64,000 nucleotides of DNA from Candidatus Magasanikbacteria bacterium GW2011_GWA2_56_11 (GTDB lineage Bacteria > Patescibacteriota > Patescibacteriia > Magasanikbacterales > UBA922), in contig LCRX01000009.1 in the NCBI GenBank assembly GCA_001004885.1, positions 1,459 to 65,458 of the forward strand. The letters are read 5' to 3'. The notes below the pieces were generated by a model. It was not told the origin of the DNA and searched no databases. It saw nothing but the letters and a program-made list of their open reading frames with translations. Both the position numbers and the translations under genes were made by a program. Positions 5,042 to 36,768 of the stretch are shown here, piece by piece; within the stretch, counting starts at the first letter, position 1; the number at the start of each line of letters is the position of its first letter.

Positions 5042-5205
5042 AGAACCTACTCCCAAAAATAATTCCGAGGCAATTTTGTGCCTGTTTCGAGCGAAAATTG
5101 TCCGGGTTGAGCAGGCTAGTGGTACTATGGCGACGAAAGCCGGACAATTTGCAGCCGAAACAGGCCAAAATTGAGCCGGAAGTTATTTTTGGAAGTAGGT
5201 TCTAG
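5042..5205 (+). mobile_element. family B MITE-like element copy B1 (about 164 bp with terminal inverted repeats AGAACCTACTCCCAAAAATAA)
   Basis: Terminal inverted repeats and an internal long imperfect palindrome; inserted inside copy A2. Confidence 0.6.
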
Positions 5206-11830: not shown

Positions 11831-11845
11831 CCGCCCGCGAATTAA

Positions 11846-12008
11846 CTAGAACCCATCTCAAAAATAATTCCGGCTCAATTTTGGCCTGTTTCGGCTGCAA
11901 ATTGTCCGGTTCTCGTCGCCATAGTACCACTATGCCTCCTCAACCCGGACAATTTTCGCTCGAAGCAGGCCAAAATTGTCTCGGAATTATTTTTGAGATG
12001 GGTTCTAA
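11846..12008 (-). mobile_element. family B MITE-like element copy B2 (inverted orientation)
   Basis: Terminal inverted repeats TAGAACCCATCTCAAAAATAA / TTATTTTTGAGATGGGTTCTAA; internal palindrome. Confidence 0.6.
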
Positions 12009-14990: not shown

Positions 14991-15642
14991 GTCCAAGCCT
15001 AAAGAAATTCCCTACAACTGAAGATTTTCCCAAGTCTTAACCGACCGCTCCGGCTGGGCCGGGGCCGGGTAAAGAAACTAGGAAGAGAGAAGAGCAACCC
15101 GATTAGTAGGTTTCTCTTTTTTCTTTTGGGGGAGTGCGATCTTTACAATTTATAACAAGCAAACAACGGTAAAACCGGCACCAAATGGTGCTGGAGGTTC
15201 ACATTATAAACGTGACAAGAACCAATTCCAACGCAAGTTGGAGATCGTCTATTCTAGTATAGGAATCAACCTCCTCTGGAGCTAGTCTCCAGGGAGTTTC
15301 TCATTGTCCTTCGGGACTTTATTGAGAGTTTGATCCTGGCTCAGGACGAACGTTGGCGGCGTGTTTAAGGCATGCAAGTCGAGGGATCGGCCGTAGCAAT
15401 ACGGTACGGACCGGCAGACGGGAGAGGAACACATTGGCAACCTACCTTCGAGACGGGGATAGCCCCGGGAAACCGGGATTAATACCCGATGGTCATGGGG
15501 GGACATAAGTCATTCCCATGTAAATCATTTCTGGCTCGAAGAGGGGCCTATGCCCTATCAGCTAGTTGGTGAGGTAATAGCTCACCAAGGCTACGACGGG
15601 TAGGGGACGTGAGAGCGTGACCCCCCTCACTGGGACTGAGAA

Positions 15643-15673
<31 letters not shown>

Positions 15674-15807
15674 AAGAATCTTCCGCAATGGACGAAAGTC
15701 TGACGGAGCGACGCCGCGTGCAGGATGAAGCCCCTCGGGGTGTAAACTGCTTTTATAGGGGACGAATTTGTGACGGTACCCTATGAATAAGAGGTTGCTA
15801 ACTCTGT

Positions 15808-16673
15808 AAGCCCAAACCGGGCCTGGTGCAGAGTGATTGTGGTAACACAGTCAAAGAAAATCTCGCTATATGCTGGAAACTTCTGTTAATGGCACACTAC
15901 CTAAAAACGGTGACAATGTGTGTCAAACCCAAAAAAACGTACTACCGCACGTATAGGGGTTGCAGAACAATCAGCAGGAAACCGCAAACTACAACCGGTT
16001 TGCGGGCTCCTCAGAGACTACACGCGAGACTCCCGAGTTAGTCGGGATGATGATATAGTCCAACGAGCTCTTCATATGAAGGCAGAAGTGAAAGAAATAG
16101 TAACCGCCTCGCTTTTAGGTGATGGTTGGTTGACGGAATTGAAGCCGAGAACAGGAACCGCTATGTACTATGTGAAATATCATGGTCGTAGCCGGGATTA
16201 TCTGCAATGGCTTCACGGACAAGTTCGCGAACTTGGTCCTTCTGAACTGAAGGAAGTCGCGCGCTATGGTCAATATTATTTCTACACGAAAGCCCGAACA
16301 GACATCGGCGAACTAAGAAAACTTTTTTACCCAAACGAGGGAAGAAAAGTGATTCCGCGAAATATCCGCGAACTGCTATCTACGCCCAAAGCCTTGGCCA
16401 TTTGGTACCAAGACGATGGAACATTAGATAAACGGTCGCGTGATCATTGGAATGCAATGTTCGCTACGTATTGTTTTGGTTATGAAGAGTGCGAGCTGCT
16501 TGCGAAAACACTGAAAGATAACTTCGACCTGGCTGTATCGGTTTGCCGATGCCAGATGCGGGGTAAAATGTATTATCGGCTTTATGTGCGATCCCAAAGT
16601 ATGAATAACTTCATACGACTCGTACAGCCGCATATACACCCATCATTCAGTTACAAAATTTCGCTTAACAATG
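15808..16673 (+). mobile_element. group I intron in the 16S rRNA (866 nt) carrying a homing endonuclease ORF
   Basis: Exon 1 ends ...CTAACTCTGT (terminal U); the intron ends ...AATG (terminal G); exon 2 resumes GCCAGCAGCAGCGGTAATAC. Confidence 0.7.
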
Positions 16674-16690
16674 GCCAGCAGCAGCGGTAA
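16076..16690 (+). CDS. LAGLIDADG homing endonuclease (two-motif, intron-encoded)
   Basis: LLGDGWL and WYQDDGT LAGLIDADG motifs; the ORF reads through the 3' splice site into exon 2. Confidence 0.8.
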   Translation: MKAEVKEIVTASLLGDGWLTELKPRTGTAMYYVKYHGRSRDYLQWLHGQVRELGPSELKEVARYGQYYFYTKARTDIGELRKLFYPNEGRKVIPRNIRELLSTPKALAIWYQDDGTLDKRSRDHWNAMFATYCFGYEECELLAKTLKDNFDLAVSVCRCQMRGKMYYRLYVRSQSMNNFIRLVQPHIHPSFSYKISLNNGQQQR

Positions 16691-17636
16691 TACAGAGACC
16701 TCAAACGTTGTCCGGATTCATTGGGCGTAAAGCGTCCGCAGGTGGCATGGAAAGTCAGGGGTCAAAGCTTCCGACTTAATCGGAAATCTGCTTCTGATAC
16801 TTCCAAGCTAGAGGTTGTGAGAGGCACACGGAACTGCCGGTGTAGTAGTAAAATGCGTTGATATCGGCAGGAACACCAAAGGCGAAGGCAGTGTGCTGGA
16901 ACAATCCTGACACTCAGGGACGAAAGCGTGGGGAGCGAATGGGATTAGATACCCCAGTAGTCCACGCCCTAAACTATGTGTACTAGGTATATGGAGTATC
17001 GACCCTCCATGTGCCGTTTAAAAAAGCTAACGCGTTAAGTACACCGCCTGGGGAGTACGGCCGCAAGGTTAAAACTCAAAGGAATAGACGGGGACCCGCA
17101 CAAGCGGAGGATCATGCGGCCCTTAAGTGGGGTAACGAGCGCAACCCTCGTTGTGTGTTACATTGGACACACGAGACTGCTCGCGCAAGCGAGAGGAAGG
17201 TGGGGACGACGTCAAATCAGCATGGCTCTTACGTCCCGGGCGACACGCATGATACAATGGCCAGTACAAAGGGTTGCCAAGCCGCGAGGTGGAGCTAATC
17301 CCATAAAGCTGGTCTCAGTTCGGATTGCAGGCTGCAACTCGCCTGCATGAAGCTGGATTCGCTAGTAAACGCGCATCAGCCACGGCGCGTTGAATACGTT
17401 CTCGGGTCTTGTACTCACCGCCCGTCACACCACGAAAGTTGGCAATGCCCGAAGGCTCTCGTTCGAGGGACGAAGGCAGGGTCAATGATCAGGGTGAAGT
17501 CGTAACAAGGCATCCGTAGCGGAAGCTGTGGATGGATCACCTCCTTTCTGGAGTTACTCTCGGGAAACCGAGTGAAACTACTAACGAGTACAAAAAGAGT
17601 AGATGATCGGTTTCTTGTCACGTTTATCGTGTGAAT

Positions 17637-31103: not shown

Positions 31104-31112
31104 GTTTAGACC

Positions 31113-31277
31113 AGAACCTACTCCCAAAAATAACTTCCGGCTCAATTTTGGCCTGTTTCGGCTGCAAATTGTCCGTCTTTCGTCGTCATAATACCATTAT
31201 GCCTCCTCAACCCGGACAATTTTCGCTCGAAACAGGCACAAAATTGCCTCGGAATTATTTTTGGGAGTAGGTTCTAG
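31113..31277 (-). mobile_element. family B MITE-like element copy B3 (inner core in the B2 orientation)
   Basis: Terminal inverted repeats AGAACCTACTCCCAAAAATAA / TTATTTTTGGGAGTAGGTTCT; 165 bp. Confidence 0.6.
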
Positions 31278-32840: not shown

Positions 32841-32870
32841 AAAAAGAGGCCGTTACCGGGTCTCTTTTTT
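32841..32870. terminator. bidirectional terminator between adk and the convergent regulator gene
   Basis: aaaaagaggccgttaccgggtctctttttt. Confidence 0.45.
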
Positions 32871-33656
32871 CATTTCCGGATGTTTCCGTACGAATACATC
32901 TAGCGGCTCGGCGCTTTGCCAGGCGAGGGAGAAAAGGGTCCGCAACGTATCGGCCAAAACTTGGCTTTGGATGAGGGTGGTGAAGAGCTTGCCCGCGAAT
33001 GATACCATCATGATTTTATCTTCGAAGATGGCGTTATCGGTGCCAACGAACTGCTGCGAGAATTCCGGCGGCACGACGCGAACCTCGTGACGCGGATTGA
33101 CGGCGAGTATTTTTTGGCCGTAGGCGATATCCACCGGATCGGGATTTACAAATTCTTTGGCCTGGCGCTGATAGTTGGTCTCTCCGGTGGCATCGGCAAT
33201 CCACAGGTCGAGCAGGTCCGGGAGCGCCTCATAGATTTTTCGTATAGAGGAGAAAAACAGAATTTCGGTTTTGCTCTTCCAGACGGTTTCGAGGTACACC
33301 TGCTTCATTCCCTCTATCCCCTCGTACACCCGCACTTGCGGCTTGCCCTTTTCGACATTGTACATAGCCCTAAGAAAGGGGAGCGCCTGTTTTACCGAAT
33401 GCTGCCGCTCCTGCACGACGCGGGCGAGCTTGTCCGGATCTTCGGCTATGTAAGTGGAGCCGCGCTCGGTCGGCTTTTCCGACAGCAACCCGCGGCGGAT
33501 TAGGTCTTCGATAATGACGTAAGCGGTCGGGCGTTTGATTCCGGCTTTTTGGGCGATATTTTGCACTGAGTCGGTTCCGAGCTCGAGCGCGGCCAGGTAG
33601 ATTTTCGCTTCTTTTTCGGAGAGGCCGAAATCGAGCAGGCTTTTTTCGAGAAACAT
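32853..33656 (-). CDS. TrmB-family helix-turn-helix transcriptional regulator
   Basis: N-terminal wHTH LSEKEAKIYLAALELGTDSVQNIAQKAGIKRPTAYVIIEDLIRRGLL. Confidence 0.65.
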   Translation of the reverse strand: MFLEKSLLDFGLSEKEAKIYLAALELGTDSVQNIAQKAGIKRPTAYVIIEDLIRRGLLSEKPTERGSTYIAEDPDKLARVVQERQHSVKQALPFLRAMYNVEKGKPQVRVYEGIEGMKQVYLETVWKSKTEILFFSSIRKIYEALPDLLDLWIADATGETNYQRQAKEFVNPDPVDIAYGQKILAVNPRHEVRVVPPEFSQQFVGTDNAIFEDKIMMVSFAGKLFTTLIQSQVLADTLRTLFSLAWQSAEPLDVFVRKHPEMKKETR

Positions 33657-33667
33657 AAGAGAATTTT

Positions 33668-33718
33668 AGAACCTACTCCCAAAATTGAGCCGGAAGTTAT
33701 TTTGGGAGTAGGTTCTAG
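33668..33718. mobile_element. family B element B4: 51-bp internally deleted derivative with TIRs only
   Basis: AGAACCTACTCCCAAAA...TTTTGGGAGTAGGTTCT with the centre missing. Confidence 0.55.
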
Positions 33719-33742
33719 CTAGAGCTAGTATACCTCTTTTTT

Positions 33743-33800
33743 ATTATGTTGTCAATAGTTTTGACAACATAATACTAATTTAGCTATATATAGCTAAATT
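33743..33800. promoter_or_regulatory. two adjacent perfect palindromes (13-bp arms ATTATGTTGTCAA/TTGACAACATAAT, and a 24-bp AATTTAGCTATATATAGCTAAATT); candidate operator site
   Basis: Perfect dyad symmetry in an AT-rich stretch 90-145 bp from the TrmB-like gene start; a TTGACA hexamer is embedded. Confidence 0.3.
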
Positions 33801-34012
33801 AGTTAGCTTTTTTTACATAAAATCATTGACAAAATGTGTTAAATCAAGTATAATCCGGCGTTAAACTTGATAATAAGTTCTTTCCAATTACCCCCCCGTA
33901 AGGAAAGACTCGTGCCAGAGCGCTCCACAGTTGCCTTGACACGAGTCTTTCCTATCTGGTCCGGGGACTCGGCGAGCAGGCGCTCGCAGTAGACGGACCG
34001 AGGCGACGGGGG

Positions 34013-34774
34013 TTGAGAATGAAGAGCGTGAACGACGTCCTCGGCAGCGTGCAGGAGTGTGGCGGTTCGGCGGTGCTCGTGCAGCGGCACGGGAGCTACA
34101 TGACCGGCCACGTCCGGGCCCGGTGCCCGGACGGGCACGTGCTCGCCGCGCGCAACTACGCGCGGCTCGAGCCCGACTGCATGTGGCCCCTGGCCTTCGA
34201 GGCGATCCAGGAGTGCCACGCGCAGGCGGCGATGCTGGCCGCGGCCGGCATGAAGGTCGAGGAGGTCATCGGTTCTCACCAGGGGCGGGGCCCGCACACC
34301 GGGCAGTGCCTCTCCGAGGGTTACGCCCGCGCGACCGGCGGCACCTGGCTCCCGTTCCGCTGCGACGCGGCTTTCGACTACCCGGTCTACGACTACGACC
34401 AGGCGCTCGCGGCGCTCCGCACGGTCGGCGACCCGATGGTCGCCGAGTGGCTGAACGGCAAGCGGCCGGGGCTCATCGTGGGCGAGACGCCGGCGAGCTT
34501 CGAGCGCCGGATCATGTCGGCCCTCGAGGGTCTCATGGCCGAGTCGGGCAGCCGGATCGTCACCTCTCACTTCGAGATCGTGACGCTCGTCCGGGCGCTC
34601 ACGGTCGCGGGCGAGCGGCTCGGCTCCGTGGACGAGGGCTGGTTCCCGGTGAAAAACGGCGGCGTCATCCTCTGGCGCGAGTCGGCCACCAGCCAGAGCT
34701 GGCACGCGGCCGAGTACGGGCCGGACTACACCCTCCGGGGCGTGGCGGTCTTCACGCTGCCGCCCGCTGTCTAG
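34013..34774 (+). CDS. hypothetical protein on the high-GC (about 70%) island
   Basis: 253 aa with balanced composition; the alternative Arg-rich frame at 34057 looks spurious. Confidence 0.5.
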   Translation: MRMKSVNDVLGSVQECGGSAVLVQRHGSYMTGHVRARCPDGHVLAARNYARLEPDCMWPLAFEAIQECHAQAAMLAAAGMKVEEVIGSHQGRGPHTGQCLSEGYARATGGTWLPFRCDAAFDYPVYDYDQALAALRTVGDPMVAEWLNGKRPGLIVGETPASFERRIMSALEGLMAESGSRIVTSHFEIVTLVRALTVAGERLGSVDEGWFPVKNGGVILWRESATSQSWHAAEYGPDYTLRGVAVFTLPPAV

Positions 34775-34787
34775 TTGTTCTTTTCTT

Positions 34788-34822
34788 GGCGCGCGCGTCT
34801 TGCACTCGAAGACGCGCGCGCC
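34788..34822 (+). terminator. perfect 14-bp GC hairpin (ggcgcgcgcgtctt / aagacgcgcgcgcc) without a T-run
   Basis: Read directly; resembles a high-GC-organism terminator. Confidence 0.35.
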
Positions 34823-34892
34823 ACCCACCACTCTAGAACTTAGTGATGGAAGGCGGTTGTACCGCAGTCGATTTCTAAATTTTAGACTGGTC

Positions 34893-35067
34893 ATTCTCAT
34901 TAGAACCCACCCGCCAAATAATGCCCAGGCAATTCCGCGCCTGTTTTCTCTCCTAAATTTTCCGCATTGAGGAAGATTGGCTGTTCTATAGCGACAAAAG
35001 CCGGACAATGTTAGGAACCGCAAGAGGCCAAAGTTGAGCCGGAAGTTATTTGGTGAACAGAGGTTGC
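34893..35067. mobile_element. family B element copy B5 (degenerate)
   Basis: AGAACCCACCCGCCAAATAA...ccggaagttatttggtgaacagaggttgc; recognisable core ccggacaat/gcctgttt. Confidence 0.4.
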
Positions 35068-35340
35068 ACACTGCCGCGCTAGGGCCGGCTCGCCCTGGCT
35101 TCGGGACCAGGAATATTCTTCGGGGACATCAGCTCGCTAACGGCTCGAAAATGTCCCCGGAGAATATTCCTGGTCCGGAAGCTGGATAGGATTAGGACGG
35201 GTATATGACCAGGACGGAGCGGAGACGCGTCAACCCGCCGGGAAACCGGACAGTTTAGGAGCCGGGAGAGGGTGAGGTTTAGTCGGGATTTTTCTCGCGC
35301 TCGTTCGGATGGTTTGTCTGCTATTGATACAAATACTGCT

Positions 35341-36768
35341 ATGTCCTTAATTATCAAAGGCACCGGCGCCAGCCGCGGGCGGGCGCGCGGGCCGGTGAAA
35401 ATCATTACCGGAATCGCTGACGCCGGCAAATTTCAGGACGGCGATATTCTGGTAACCCGGATTACCAGTCCGGCCATGGTGGCGATGATGGCCCGGGCGG
35501 CGGCGATTGTCTGCGATGTCGGGAGCGTCACCTCGCACCCGTCTGTCGTCAGCCGCGAACTGGGCATTCCCTGCGTGGTTAACACGCGGGAGGCGACGGC
35601 CCGGCTACAGGATGGTTTAGTGGTTGAAGTGGACGGGAGCGAGGGGGAAGTCAGAGTGATTTCCAGGGAACCGGAGGGCGCAAAAAATCCGGCGGTATCT
35701 GCCTTAAATCTCGACAGCGAAATTGATACCTGGCTCGACATCGCGGTCGAGGCCGTGTCGGCTATGGATTTTTCCACCTTCGAGGACGTCGTCGCCTGGT
35801 ATCGCTACGATCCGCTCGCGGCTCGGCCGTGGCTCGAACACGTGCGCCGGATTGTCCGGCAATGCCGGGTGGAGAGGCTGACGGCCATGGAAGCGGCGCG
35901 TTTGTTGCCCAATCCGAGCGAGATCCGCGGCACCATGATCTTTGATTTGTACGCGACCAAGTATGCCGGCCTGTCCAAGGCGGAACGCCTGGAAATTTTT
36001 GACTTTTACCGTCGGATGCTGAGAGCGCTGTGCCTTGATGACCCCTACGCCCGGGAAAAAAATGTCATCCACTCGAAAGAAAAAATCCGGGAACTCGCCG
36101 CCGCGGCCGATCCGGCCACGCCGCCCATCGCCCGCGCGCTCGGCCGACTGGTGAGCGCCGGCTATCACGTGGGACACGCGCTTTACAGCGACATGCACCC
36201 GAGCATCGTCTACGATAACTACGCTCCGTATGATGTCTCCGACCTCTACGGGCCAAGGTCTGTGGCCGTGATCAAGGAATTTAACAACCTGAACTGTCCC
36301 GAAATTTGGCCGGAGTTGAAGCCGGTACCGGCCGACAGCGTGCGCATAGTATGCGTTTACGAAAACGTCTTGGCCCGCGTGGACACGGTTTCGCATATCG
36401 TCTACGACGGCGACACGGTGAACGGCCTTAAATACGCCGCGGTCTATGTGGACGGGCAAAAGCGCGATCCGCTCTCCCTTTCCGGACTTTCCGCCGGGCT
36501 GGAACAGGCGGCCATTGACGCCTTTACCCGCTGGCAAGGATTTGATCTCGAAGAACGCAAGCGCCGGTATTATCTGGCCAAGGCCTATGATTTCAAAAAT
36601 CTGGCCGGGAAACTGGGACTCGACTGGAAGCCGGGAGAAGAACTCTCTGCGGCCGTTCGCGGGAAACCTTTGTGTCGGGTGGAGTGGCCGGTCGAGAAAG
36701 CGGCCGTTAAATATCGGCTGCGGTCCATTCTTGACCCCCGCATCGAGCCGGCGGCCGGACTCCTTTAG
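35341..36768 (+). CDS. protein with an N-terminal PEP-utilising-enzyme mobile (phosphohistidine swivel) domain fused to an unrecognised domain of about 370 aa
   Basis: GASRGRARGPV...GDILVTRITSPAMVA...GSVTSHPSVVSRELGIPCVVN matches the PEP-utiliser signature around the catalytic His. Confidence 0.7.
   Translation: MSLIIKGTGASRGRARGPVKIITGIADAGKFQDGDILVTRITSPAMVAMMARAAAIVCDVGSVTSHPSVVSRELGIPCVVNTREATARLQDGLVVEVDGSEGEVRVISREPEGAKNPAVSALNLDSEIDTWLDIAVEAVSAMDFSTFEDVVAWYRYDPLAARPWLEHVRRIVRQCRVERLTAMEAARLLPNPSEIRGTMIFDLYATKYAGLSKAERLEIFDFYRRMLRALCLDDPYAREKNVIHSKEKIRELAAAADPATPPIARALGRLVSAGYHVGHALYSDMHPSIVYDNYAPYDVSDLYGPRSVAVIKEFNNLNCPEIWPELKPVPADSVRIVCVYENVLARVDTVSHIVYDGDTVNGLKYAAVYVDGQKRDPLSLSGLSAGLEQAAIDAFTRWQGFDLEERKRRYYLAKAYDFKNLAGKLGLDWKPGEELSAAVRGKPLCRVEWPVEKAAVKYRLRSILDPRIEPAAGLL

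What the first reader, a model, noticed from the sequence alone, without database searches (positions are those of the whole stretch)
35341..36768. Stand-alone phosphohistidine swivel domain fused to an unknown 370-aa domain
The N-terminal ~110 aa match the PEP-utilising-enzyme mobile domain, including the TSH phosphohistidine context. Everything after that is unrecognisable to me. There is no adjacent PTS, PPDK or PEP-synthase partner in the window. A swivel domain delivering phosphate to a novel catalytic domain would be a new enzyme architecture. The gene sits directly beside the B5 element and island.
Basis: partly seen in the sequence, partly recalled or inferred. Interest (0 to 1): 0.55.

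Follow-up and report, generated by a model that had tools for sequence, protein, structure and literature searches.

The report
Phosphate-carrier domain fused to uncharacterised domain
This gene, annotated as PEP synthase, is really the phosphate-carrying piece of such an enzyme fused to a domain of unknown fold; it always travels with a phosphatase-like gene and a regulator, and the likely result is an uncharacterised phosphate-transfer system common in ultra-small bacteria and archaea.

Summary
ORF 35341-36768 (+) encodes 475 aa. Residues 1-107 are a PEP-synthase-type phosphohistidine swivel domain (PF00391, E 3.6e-23; T64-S65-H66). Residues ~123-475 (C-dom) match nothing in Pfam, NCBIfam or PDB sequences. 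A confident model (pLDDT 90.8) has no Foldseek match in the PDB.

C-dom is uncharacterised, but the gene is not an orphan. The family has at least 480 clusters at 50% identity, mostly stand-alone ~355-aa proteins encoded next to a free ~110-aa swivel protein. Some relatives fuse or link C-dom to a canonical PEP-synthase ATP-grasp domain (PPDK_N).

The "island" next door (34019-34774, GC3 96%) is a conserved partner gene with a histidine-phosphatase-like motif pattern. A divergent TrmB-like regulator completes the cassette. No ATP-grasp or TIM-barrel partner lies in the 64 kb.

Best reading: this is the carrier-plus-acceptor subunit of a multi-component dikinase, like HpeH of HpeHI or rifampin phosphotransferase. 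C-dom replaces the known acceptor domains, and a dedicated phosphatase accompanies it. The substrate is unknown, with weak hints towards a carbohydrate. The public "PEP synthase" annotation is wrong. New variant of a known kind; interest about 0.55.

The parts
35341..36768 (+). S-C gene: 475-aa protein made of a swivel domain plus C-dom. An alternative GTG start at 35272 gives the 498 aa of the public annotation 'PEP synthase'.
   Evidence: P0001, 100% identity; homologue N-termini align with the ATG at 35341.
35341..35661 (+). Phosphohistidine swivel domain (aa 1-107), PEP-synthase type. The catalytic His66 codon is at 35536-35538, within the T64-S65-H66 motif.
35662..35706 (+). Flexible linker (aa 108-122), pLDDT below 50.
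35707..36765 (+). C-dom (aa ~123-475), an uncharacterised alpha/beta domain. It has an N-terminal helical bundle, about 7 beta-strands and long C-terminal helices. Family-wide conserved residues are D234, D284, G/A295-P296-Y297, W323, Y340, W429 and P431.
   Evidence: (pLDDT 90.8, pTM 0.90).
34019..34774 (+). Conserved partner gene (A4 family, 251 aa, annotated hypothetical UY92_C0009G0047). Invariant R25-H26, S88/R92-G-P and H186-x-E188 resemble the histidine-phosphatase superfamily core. GC is 71.5% and GC3 is 95.7%.
   Evidence: (35% identity, E 1e-43 to the syntenic gene in L005).
32853..33656 (-). Divergently transcribed TrmB-family winged-helix regulator (267 aa), conserved upstream of the cassette in at least 9 loci.
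   Evidence: (PF01978, E 5.8e-12).
33657..34018 (.). Divergent control region. It holds a perfect TTGACA-17-TATAAT at 33826-33854 (+) and an 11/12 promoter at 33755-33727 (-). Perfect palindromes at 33742-33774 and 33774-33803 are candidate operators.
   Evidence: These are consensus matches only; function is inferred.
34775..35340 (.). Unusually long (566 nt) spacer between the partner and S-C genes. It contains a GC hairpin (34787-34823), a copy of the dispersed repeat (35028-35056) and a hairpin with 32-nt arms (35098-35182). In relatives this spacer is ~85-100 nt.

Best explanation
The 475-aa protein is the phosphoryl-carrier plus acceptor-site subunit of a multi-component enzyme of the PEP-synthase/PPDK/RPH 'dikinase' class.

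Proposed steps:
1. A PEP-synthase-type ATP-grasp subunit (PPDK_N) loads phosphate from ATP onto His66 of the swivel domain. This subunit is not in this window. It is adjacent or fused in relatives, and stand-alone copies are abundant in Patescibacteria.
2. The swivel domain, on its flexible linker, delivers the phosphate to a substrate bound in C-dom. C-dom takes the place of the pyruvate-binding TIM barrel of PEP synthase, or of the rifampin/phenol-binding domain of RPH/HpeH.
3. The conserved upstream gene, histidine-phosphatase-like, removes a phosphate. Its target is either the product or the phospho-His itself (SixA-like).
4. The divergent TrmB-like regulator controls the cassette.

The substrate is unknown; a sugar or glycan hydroxyl is the leading guess.

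Shown: the domain identities, the conservation of the family, the fusions and the operon links. Inferred: the direction of phosphate flow, the donor in this particular genome, the substrate and the phosphatase target.
For: Swivel domain:
- It is intact and of the PpsA type, with a conserved His.

C-dom conservation:
- The family has 480 representatives at E<=1e-3 and 133 at E<=1e-30.
- The model is confident (pLDDT 90.8, pTM 0.90).

Fusion and operon links:
- P0261 is swivel + PPDK_N + C-dom. P0225 is C-dom + PPDK_N, with a free swivel gene just upstream.
- L014 (Doudnabacteria) is the operon [His_Phos-like][swivel 107 aa][C-dom][PPDK_N 335 aa] with overlapping starts and stops. Its PPDK_N scores 323 bits against PEP synthase positions 5-337.
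- L016 is [swivel][C-dom][352 aa][PPDK_N].
- C-dom and swivel are adjacent or fused in every locus examined.

The phosphatase partner recurs:
- A4 type in the window, L004/5 and L011-13.
- A5 type (PF00300, 24 bits, above the gathering score) in L001 and L007. The A5-type proteins of L014 and L016 match only my own A5 profile, built from those two; L014's has no Pfam hit.
- A Metallophos gene sits at the same position in the P0006 contig.

Precedent and shared subunits:
- Split dikinases are known. In HpeHI, CreHI and phenylphosphate synthase, the ATP-grasp is a separate subunit from the substrate-binding-plus-swivel subunit. That subunit alone catalyses phosphate exchange (PMC12167813).
- Stand-alone PPDK_N proteins are abundant and 66-80% identical across Patescibacteria. 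They can serve several swivel proteins.
Against: - No PPDK_N or N-dom gene lies in the 64-kb window.
- None of the A4-type loci shows one within +/-8 kb. The ATP-dependent loading step is therefore undemonstrated for this subtype.
- The rest of the genome could not be inspected.
- No substrate evidence exists beyond soft hints. These are the TrmB-family regulator, aromatic and Asp residues conserved in C-dom, and a sugar nucleotidyltransferase and sugar-binding protein near L016.
- Assignment of the A4 partner to the histidine-phosphatase superfamily is not significant by HMM or HHalign. It rests on motifs, operon position and enrichment among sub-threshold hits.
Confidence: 0.55

Rival explanations
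1. ATP-grasp-independent His-to-His relay. The histidine-phosphatase-like partner (A4) forms its own phospho-His from a phosphorylated metabolite, as phosphoglycerate mutases do, and exchanges phosphate with His66 of the swivel domain. C-dom binds the other substrate. The cassette would then be a self-contained phosphotransferase that needs no ATP.
For: - The A4-type cassettes (window, L004/5, L011-13) never have PPDK_N nearby, whereas 3 of 4 A5-type loci do.
- A4 has an invariant R-H ... R ... H-x-E pattern typical of enzymes with a phospho-His intermediate.
- The A4 gene always sits directly upstream of the swivel gene.
Against: - In the P0006 contig, a Metallophos phosphoesterase occupies the same position. 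From general knowledge, such enzymes form no phospho-enzyme intermediate, so this argues that the conserved role is hydrolysis.
- A5-type partners coexist with PPDK_N.
- Phosphate transfer from ordinary phosphoesters to His is energetically uphill.
- The A4 fold assignment is itself unproven.
Confidence: 0.15
2. C-dom is the donor-binding domain, like the C-terminal domain of Enzyme I. It would charge His66 from PEP or another high-energy phosphate, and the swivel would then phosphorylate another protein or the partner. Alternatively the system runs in reverse, to make ATP with PPDK_N.
For: - The S-C order (swivel then C-dom) mirrors the swivel-then-PEP-binding-domain order in PpsA and EI.
- In N-S-C relatives (P0006, P0123, P0128) a second unknown domain (N-dom) sits where the ATP-grasp sits in PpsA, and it could be the acceptor.
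- From general knowledge, CPR organisms are fermenters in which PPDK-like ATP-forming reactions would be useful.
Against: - C-dom is not a TIM barrel and resembles no PEP-, pyruvate- or nucleotide-binding structure.
- When the full three-domain set is fused (P0261), the donor role is already filled by a canonical ATP-grasp.
- Residues conserved across the family are Asp, Tyr and Trp, not the Arg/Lys clusters expected for binding a phosphorylated donor.
Confidence: 0.15
3. It is a true PEP synthase (pyruvate, water dikinase), as annotated in the public record, or a decayed fragment of one with no function.
For: - The source annotation is 'Phosphoenolpyruvate synthase'.
- The swivel domain is closest to PpsA.
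Against: - It lacks both PPDK_N and the PEP/pyruvate TIM barrel. The PEP-synthase models score 107-110 bits against cutoffs of 598-740, and only over residues 3-137.
- C-dom is a conserved domain family of its own. It has 480 clusters, 32-53% identity among full-length homologues, conserved synteny and a confident fold. This excludes a decayed remnant.
Confidence: 0.03

Closest known systems
Two-component small-molecule dikinases: HpeHI, CreHI and phenylphosphate synthase PpsAB (PMC12167813)
   Same: - The enzyme is split so that one polypeptide carries the swivel His domain plus the acceptor-substrate domain, and a separate ~35-40 kDa PPDK_N ATP-grasp subunit supplies phosphate.
- Relatives of the window gene have exactly this partner next door (L014, L016).
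- The HpeH-type subunit alone can exchange phosphate between product and substrate. This gives a possible activity for an S-C protein without a nearby ATP-grasp.
   Different: - The acceptor domain here is unrelated to the RPH/HpeH rifampin-binding-type domain (hhalign probability 0.1%, no Foldseek hit to 5FBS/5HV1).
- Domain order is reversed, with the swivel first.
- The swivel keeps the PpsA/PPDK-type T-S-H motif. HpeH and RPH have Met at the -2 position.
- A phosphatase-like gene and a TrmB regulator are conserved partners.
- The swivel is often a free ~110-aa protein.
PEP synthase (PpsA) / pyruvate phosphate dikinase
   Same: - The swivel domain is most similar to that of PpsA.
- The associated ATP-grasp in relatives is PpsA-type (323 bits).
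- The N-S-C and S-C domain order matches the PpsA layout, with C-dom in the position of the TIM barrel.
   Different: - There is no PEP/pyruvate TIM barrel (PF02896) and no ATP-grasp in this protein or this window.
- C-dom is an alpha/beta domain with no detectable similarity to any PpsA domain.
Rifampin phosphotransferase (RPH)
   Same: A three-module logic: ATP-grasp, swivel His domain and a dedicated small-molecule-binding domain (PMC4844700, listed). Foldseek aligns the swivel domain at rmsd 1.5-2.2 A.
   Different: - NF041857 matches only the swivel domain (60 bits against a cutoff of 999).
- There is no similarity to the RIF-binding domain.
- The domain order differs.
Glucan, water dikinase with phosphoglucan phosphatase (GWD/SEX4) of plant starch metabolism. 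This comparison is from my own knowledge and was not tested here.
   Same: A dikinase with a swivel His is paired with a dedicated phosphatase acting on the phosphorylated product. This would explain the obligatory phosphatase partner and the sugar-type regulator.
   Different: No sequence or fold relationship between C-dom and carbohydrate-binding modules was found. The analogy is functional and speculative.
SixA phosphohistidine phosphatase acting on the PTS-Ntr carrier NPr (PMC7948535, PMC6282199)
   Same: This is a precedent (listed) for a phosphohistidine phosphatase that dephosphorylates a carrier in a PEP-utilising phosphorelay. From my own knowledge, SixA belongs to the histidine-phosphatase superfamily. 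The partner gene could play this role on His66.
   Different: - The partners here are 250-320 aa; SixA is, from memory, about 160 aa.
- They are operon-linked to the carrier.
- The A4 type is not detectably homologous by HMM.

Membership tests
PEP-utilising enzymes (PpsA/PPDK/EI) | Mobile phosphohistidine (swivel) domain PF00391 with the catalytic His | tested here: met
   PF00391 E 3.6e-23. H66 lies in the T-S-H motif and is conserved. The structural match has rmsd 1.2-2.2 A.
PEP synthase / PPDK | N-terminal ATP-grasp nucleotide-binding domain (PF01326, PPDK_N) | tested here: not met
   It is absent from the protein and from all ORFs of the 64-kb window.
PEP synthase / PPDK / Enzyme I | C-terminal PEP/pyruvate-binding TIM barrel (PF02896) | tested here: not met
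   No Pfam hit at E<=1. The model is not a barrel. There is no Foldseek hit to PpsA, PPDK or EI beyond the swivel. hhalign probability against full-length PpsA is 0.3%.
Rifampin phosphotransferase / HpeH-type dikinases | RIF-binding-type helical substrate domain preceding a C-terminal swivel | tested here: not met
   NF041857 matches the swivel only. hhalign probability of C-dom against RPH-like proteins is 0.1%. There is no Foldseek hit of C-dom to 5FBS, 5FBT or 5HV1.
Multi-component dikinase class (functional class, not a sequence family) | Genetic linkage or fusion of ATP-grasp, swivel and a third substrate domain | tested here: met
   Met for the C-dom family as a whole: P0261, P0225/L007, L014 and L016. 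Not met locally for this window or for other A4-type loci.
Multi-component dikinase class | ATP-dependent phosphorylation of the swivel His and transfer to an acceptor substrate | not testable with these tools
   This needs biochemistry.
C-dom family (unnamed; swivel-associated ~355-aa domain) | Full-length homology to the C-dom profile, including the conserved D234, D284, (G/A)PY297, W323, Y340 and W429-x-P431 | tested here: met
   The query has A295 where 97% of members have G.
Histidine phosphatase superfamily (for the partner gene 34019-34774) | RHG catalytic His, two Arg, a second His and a proton donor on the PGAM-like fold, with a significant match to PF00300 | tested here: inconclusive
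   - For: the motif pattern is present and invariant (R25-H26, R92, H186, E188).
- For: it occupies the same operon position as the A5-type partners, two of which (L001, L007) hit PF00300 above the gathering score.
- For: A5 proteins are 3 of the top 7 sub-threshold hits of the A4 HMM among 2031 ORFs.
- Against: Pfam, PDB-profile and HHalign matches are not significant.
TrmB-family regulators (for 32853-33656) | N-terminal TrmB winged-helix domain PF01978; C-terminal sugar-binding domain | tested here: inconclusive
   The HTH criterion is met (E 5.8e-12, 45.7 bits against a cutoff of 25.6). The C-terminal ~190 aa have no family match.

The most novel reading that the evidence does not exclude
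The cassette is a PTS-like phosphorelay specific to ultra-small bacteria and archaea (CPR/DPANN). A swivel domain, free or fused, acts as an HPr-like carrier and shuttles phosphate to a domain of previously unseen fold. That domain phosphorylates a carbohydrate or cell-envelope glycan, and an obligatory phosphatase completes a phosphorylate/dephosphorylate cycle analogous to plant GWD/SEX4. In the A4 subtype found in this window, the relay may run without any ATP-grasp, using the histidine-phosphatase-like partner as a phospho-His relay partner.
Probability: 0.15. Interest if true: 0.75.

Novelty: new variant of a known kind. Interest (0 to 1): 0.55.

Why it matters
1. The public annotation 'phosphoenolpyruvate synthase' is wrong. 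If it is propagated, it would create a false gluconeogenic step in metabolic reconstructions of CPR genomes.
2. C-dom defines a large protein family (at least 480 clusters at 50% identity). It has no name in Pfam or NCBIfam, no solved structure and no PDB fold match by Foldseek. It is tied by fusion and operon structure to phospho-His chemistry, so there is a concrete biochemical handle on a conserved 'hypothetical' of organisms with minimal genomes.
3. In the Magasanikbacteria lineage the cassette sits inside the conserved secY-adk-map gene cluster. In other lineages it sits among other housekeeping genes. This suggests a core physiological role rather than an accessory trait.
4. The system extends the modular repertoire of swivel-domain dikinases (PpsA, PPDK, EI, RPH, HpeHI, GWD) with a new acceptor module, free-standing swivel carrier proteins and an obligatory phosphatase.

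Tried and rejected
- **Weak Foldseek hits.** Hsp70, pyridoxal kinase and Rieske oxygenase hits have probability 0.06 or less and TM about 0.1. I rejected them.
- **BLASTP extension into PEP synthase.** The alignment with PEP synthase P0020 ran past the swivel to residue 243. Identity beyond the swivel is low and gapped, and neither profile nor structure supports it. I treat it as alignment over-extension.
- **N-dom** (the extra 340 aa in P0006, P0018 and P0123). hhalign against PpsA, RPH-like and swivel-first families was not significant. N-dom is absent from the window. Its nature remains unknown.
- **A4 partner against the histidine phosphatases.** Pfam, a PDB profile search and HHalign were all non-significant.
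- **Anti-phage defence.** PADLOC gave no hits for S-C, the partner, N-S-C or PPDK_N. Only the generic HTH of the regulator matched.
- **Genome scan.** The scan with the broad C-dom alignment failed for lack of conserved stretches. A narrower alignment returned only 5 loci, all Patescibacteria.
- **Literature.** Searches for the swivel domain together with CPR or histidine phosphatase found nothing.
- **Rfam on 33600-35400.** Only spurious microRNA-type hairpin hits, all below gathering scores.
- **Flanking genes.** Genes beyond the four-gene core are not conserved (DNA pol I, GH18, housekeeping genes). They give no pathway clue.
Full report
**1. What is in the window**

The window comes from Candidatus Magasanikbacteria bacterium GW2011_GWA2_56_11, a CPR/Patescibacteria member. 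The target protein is 100% identical to P0001 of that genome, where it is annotated 'Phosphoenolpyruvate synthase'. The mechanical ORF runs 35272-36768 (+) from a GTG (498 aa). All 16 full-length homologues begin at the position of the ATG at 35341, so I use the 475-aa form.

The N-terminal domain is a phosphohistidine swivel domain:
- Residues 31-102 match Pfam PF00391 (E 3.6e-23).
- The best NCBIfam and PDB sequence matches are PEP synthases, and they cover only residues 3-107.
- The motif is T64-S65-H66, with the His codon at 35536-35538. The His is conserved in every homologue that has the domain.
- An AlphaFold2 model of the whole protein (pLDDT 87.8) was compared with the PDB by Foldseek. 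It matches pyruvate kinase, RPH, PPDK and EI only over ~104 residues, at rmsd 1.2-2.2 A.

**2. The C-terminal domain (C-dom, residues ~123-475)**

It has no detectable relative of known function or structure:
- No hit in Pfam, NCBIfam or PDB sequences, as a single sequence or as a 16-sequence profile.
- A C-dom-only model is confident (pLDDT 90.8, pTM 0.90). It shows an N-terminal helical bundle, about seven beta-strands and long C-terminal helices.
- Foldseek finds nothing in the PDB (best E 0.17, TM about 0.1) or in viral models.
- Profile-profile comparison with full-length PEP synthases, RPH-like proteins, other 'swivel-first' proteins, N-dom and the partner families gives probabilities of 1% or less.

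**3. The family is large and modular**

An exhaustive profile search found 480 representatives (50%-identity clusters) at E<=1e-3 and 133 at E<=1e-30. I classified the best 148 plus the query with my own HMMs:

| Architecture | Count |
|---|---|
| Stand-alone C-dom (~355 aa) | 127 |
| Swivel + C-dom (as here) | 13 |
| N-dom + C-dom | 3 |
| N-dom + swivel + C-dom | 2 |
| Tandem C-dom | 2 |
| C-dom + PPDK_N (P0225) | 1 |
| Swivel + PPDK_N + C-dom (P0261, on an archaeal-looking contig with topoisomerase VI) | 1 |

The PPDK_N assignments are strong (Pfam E 2e-97 and 2e-76). Loci recovered from genomes are all Patescibacteria (Magasanikiibacteriota, Parcubacteria, Doudnabacteria).

**4. Gene context**

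Searches show that C-dom and a swivel domain are adjacent or fused in every locus examined.

| Locus | Arrangement |
|---|---|
| L011, L012, L013 | TrmB(-) \| A4 partner \| free swivel (110-116 aa) \| C-dom |
| Window, L004/L005 | TrmB(-) \| A4 partner \| swivel-C-dom fusion |
| L014 (Doudnabacteria) | A5 partner \| swivel \| C-dom \| stand-alone PPDK_N, with overlapping stops and starts |
| L007 | A5 partner \| swivel \| C-dom-PPDK_N |
| L016 | swivel \| C-dom \| 352 aa \| PPDK_N, with His_Phos_1 genes nearby |
| L006 | N-dom-swivel \| C-dom |
| L001 | S-C \| A5 partner \| swivel \| C-dom |

The L014 PPDK_N scores 323 bits against positions 5-337 of PEP synthase.

In the Magasanikbacteria lineage the cassette lies between adk and map, directly downstream of the ribosomal-protein genes and secY. 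The P0006 contig has the same synteny. There a Metallophos phosphoesterase and a free swivel gene sit between TrmB and an N-S-C gene.

**5. The 'island' is the partner gene**

- ORF 34019-34774 is 35% identical (E 1e-43) to the gene at the same position in L005.
- It has 14 homologues, all Patescibacterial hypotheticals.
- Its invariant residues R25-H26, S88, R92-G-P, H186 and E188 reproduce the pattern of the histidine-phosphatase (PGAM/SixA) superfamily. I recognise that pattern from my own knowledge.
- The assignment is not significant by Pfam, PDB profile search or HHalign.
- It is supported by three things: the motifs; the identical operon position of A5-type partners, two of which (L001, L007) pass PF00300 (24 bits); and the fact that A5 proteins are 3 of the top 7 sub-threshold hits of the A4 HMM among 2031 ORFs.
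- The gene is compositionally aberrant, with GC 71.5% and GC3 95.7%, against GC3 of 64-75% in its neighbours.
- It is bracketed by two partial copies of a dispersed repeat.
- The spacer to the S-C gene is 566 nt, against ~85-100 nt in relatives.
- I read this as a replacement of the resident partner gene by a foreign copy of the same family. It is not unrelated cargo.

**6. Mechanism**

The fusions and operons place C-dom in the third-domain slot of the swivel-dikinase scheme. The most likely mechanism has three steps:
- An ATP-grasp subunit phosphorylates His66.
- The swivel, on its disordered linker (residues 108-122), carries the phosphate to a substrate bound in C-dom.
- The partner phosphatase hydrolyses a phosphate, either from the product or from the phospho-His.

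Split dikinases of this logic are experimentally established (HpeHI, CreHI, phenylphosphate synthase). The swivel-plus-substrate subunit alone can exchange phosphate between product and substrate (PMC12167813).

Stand-alone ~311-aa PPDK_N proteins are abundant and 66-80% identical across Patescibacteria. In L018 one sits between two different X-swivel proteins. A shared ATP-grasp subunit encoded elsewhere in the genome is therefore plausible.

What is not shown:
- No ATP-grasp lies in this window, nor within 8 kb of any A4-type cassette.
- The rest of the genome could not be read.
- The substrate is unknown.

Residues conserved across 110 divergent members are D234, D284, G295 (Ala in this protein), P296, Y297, W323, Y340, W429 and P431. 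This Asp- and aromatic-rich set, the TrmB-family regulator, and a sugar nucleotidyltransferase and sugar-binding protein near L016 weakly suggest a carbohydrate acceptor. The swivel keeps the PpsA/PPDK-type Thr at -2 from the His. RPH and HpeH have Met there.

**7. Rivals**

- **ATP-independent His-to-His relay with the partner.** It is favoured by the absence of PPDK_N near A4 loci. It is disfavoured by the Metallophos substitution and by energetics.
- **C-dom as a donor-binding domain.** It is disfavoured by the fold, by the conserved residues and by the complete S-PPDK_N-C fusion.
- **A true or decayed PEP synthase.** It is excluded by domain content and by the strong conservation of C-dom.

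**8. Comparison and verdict**

The system works like the two-component small-molecule dikinases and RPH. It is not a member of those sequence families, because the acceptor domain is unrelated, the domain order is reversed and the swivel is of the PpsA type. It is not a PEP synthase either, because two of three defining domains are absent.

I class it as a new variant of a known kind: a swivel-dikinase system with a new acceptor module of undetected fold, often a free swivel carrier protein, and an obligatory phosphatase-like partner under a TrmB-like regulator. It is widespread in CPR/DPANN metagenomes and entirely uncharacterised; literature searches found nothing.

Interest is moderate (about 0.55). 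The biochemical class is predictable, but the domain, the substrate and the role of the phosphatase are open and directly testable.

Noticed in passing
window 5126-5205 (+), ~11845-11925 (-), ~31110-31190 (-), 33667-33717, 34990-35056: A dispersed intergenic repeat of ~80 nt. The core TTGAGCCGGAAGTTATTT occurs exactly 4 times, plus one copy with 3 mismatches (0.1 expected by chance). Full copies share the left arm TATGGCGACGAAAGCCGGACAATTTGCAGCCGAAACAGGCCAAAA and the right arm TTGGGAGTAGGTTCTAG. The two copies around the partner gene are partial: right half at 33685, left half at 35034. It could be a REP/MITE-like element or a small RNA or terminator module.
   Followed up: partly
window 34019-34774: The partner gene has GC 71.5% and GC3 95.7%, in a genome whose neighbouring genes have GC3 of 64-75%. 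Yet it belongs to a Patescibacteria-only family and sits in the conserved syntenic position. This suggests a recent replacement by a foreign copy of the same family from a high-GC relative.
   Followed up: partly
window 15318-17547: The 16S rRNA gene is split into two Rfam matches (15318-15868 and 16479-17547) by an insertion. The insertion contains a group I intron (RF00028, 15798-16084) and an ORF (15920-16690). From general knowledge, this is typical of CPR rRNA genes.
   Followed up: no
window 33727-33854: Divergent promoter pair: a perfect TTGACA-17-TATAAT (33826-33854, +) for the partner gene and an 11/12 match (33755-33727, -) for the TrmB-like gene. Two perfect palindromes (33742-33774 and 33774-33803) lie between and over them and are candidate operators.
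   Followed up: partly
window 35098-35182: A long hairpin (32-nt arms, 94% complementary, 21-nt loop) lies in the 566-nt spacer upstream of the S-C gene. Rfam gives only spurious microRNA-type hits below threshold.
   Followed up: no
L018 4510-8251; L012 996-2555 (-); L015 8506-9960; L016 1-2662 and 4731-6623: Patescibacterial and DPANN-like contigs carry many other proteins of ~440-630 aa with an unknown N-terminal domain and a C-terminal swivel. They are often clustered around a highly conserved stand-alone PPDK_N (66-80% identity across more than 100 clusters). This looks like a toolkit of one ATP-grasp subunit serving several swivel-acceptor subunits.
   Followed up: partly
P0006, P0018, P0123, P0128, P0135, P0146, P0147 (N-terminal ~320-340 aa); L006 100-1413: A second uncharacterised domain (N-dom) is fused upstream of the swivel and/or C-dom in some relatives. 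It has no Pfam match and no significant hhalign match to PPDK_N or RPH-like domains. It occupies the position of the ATP-grasp in PpsA, so it might be a replacement donor domain.
   Followed up: partly
L003 9508-9756, L004 3902-4105, L005 3797-3994: In the P0016/P0017 subfamily, the S-C gene is followed by a small PP-binding (acyl-carrier-like) protein, then by thioredoxin, an aminotransferase and glutamate dehydrogenase. Whether the carrier protein is functionally linked is unknown.
   Followed up: no
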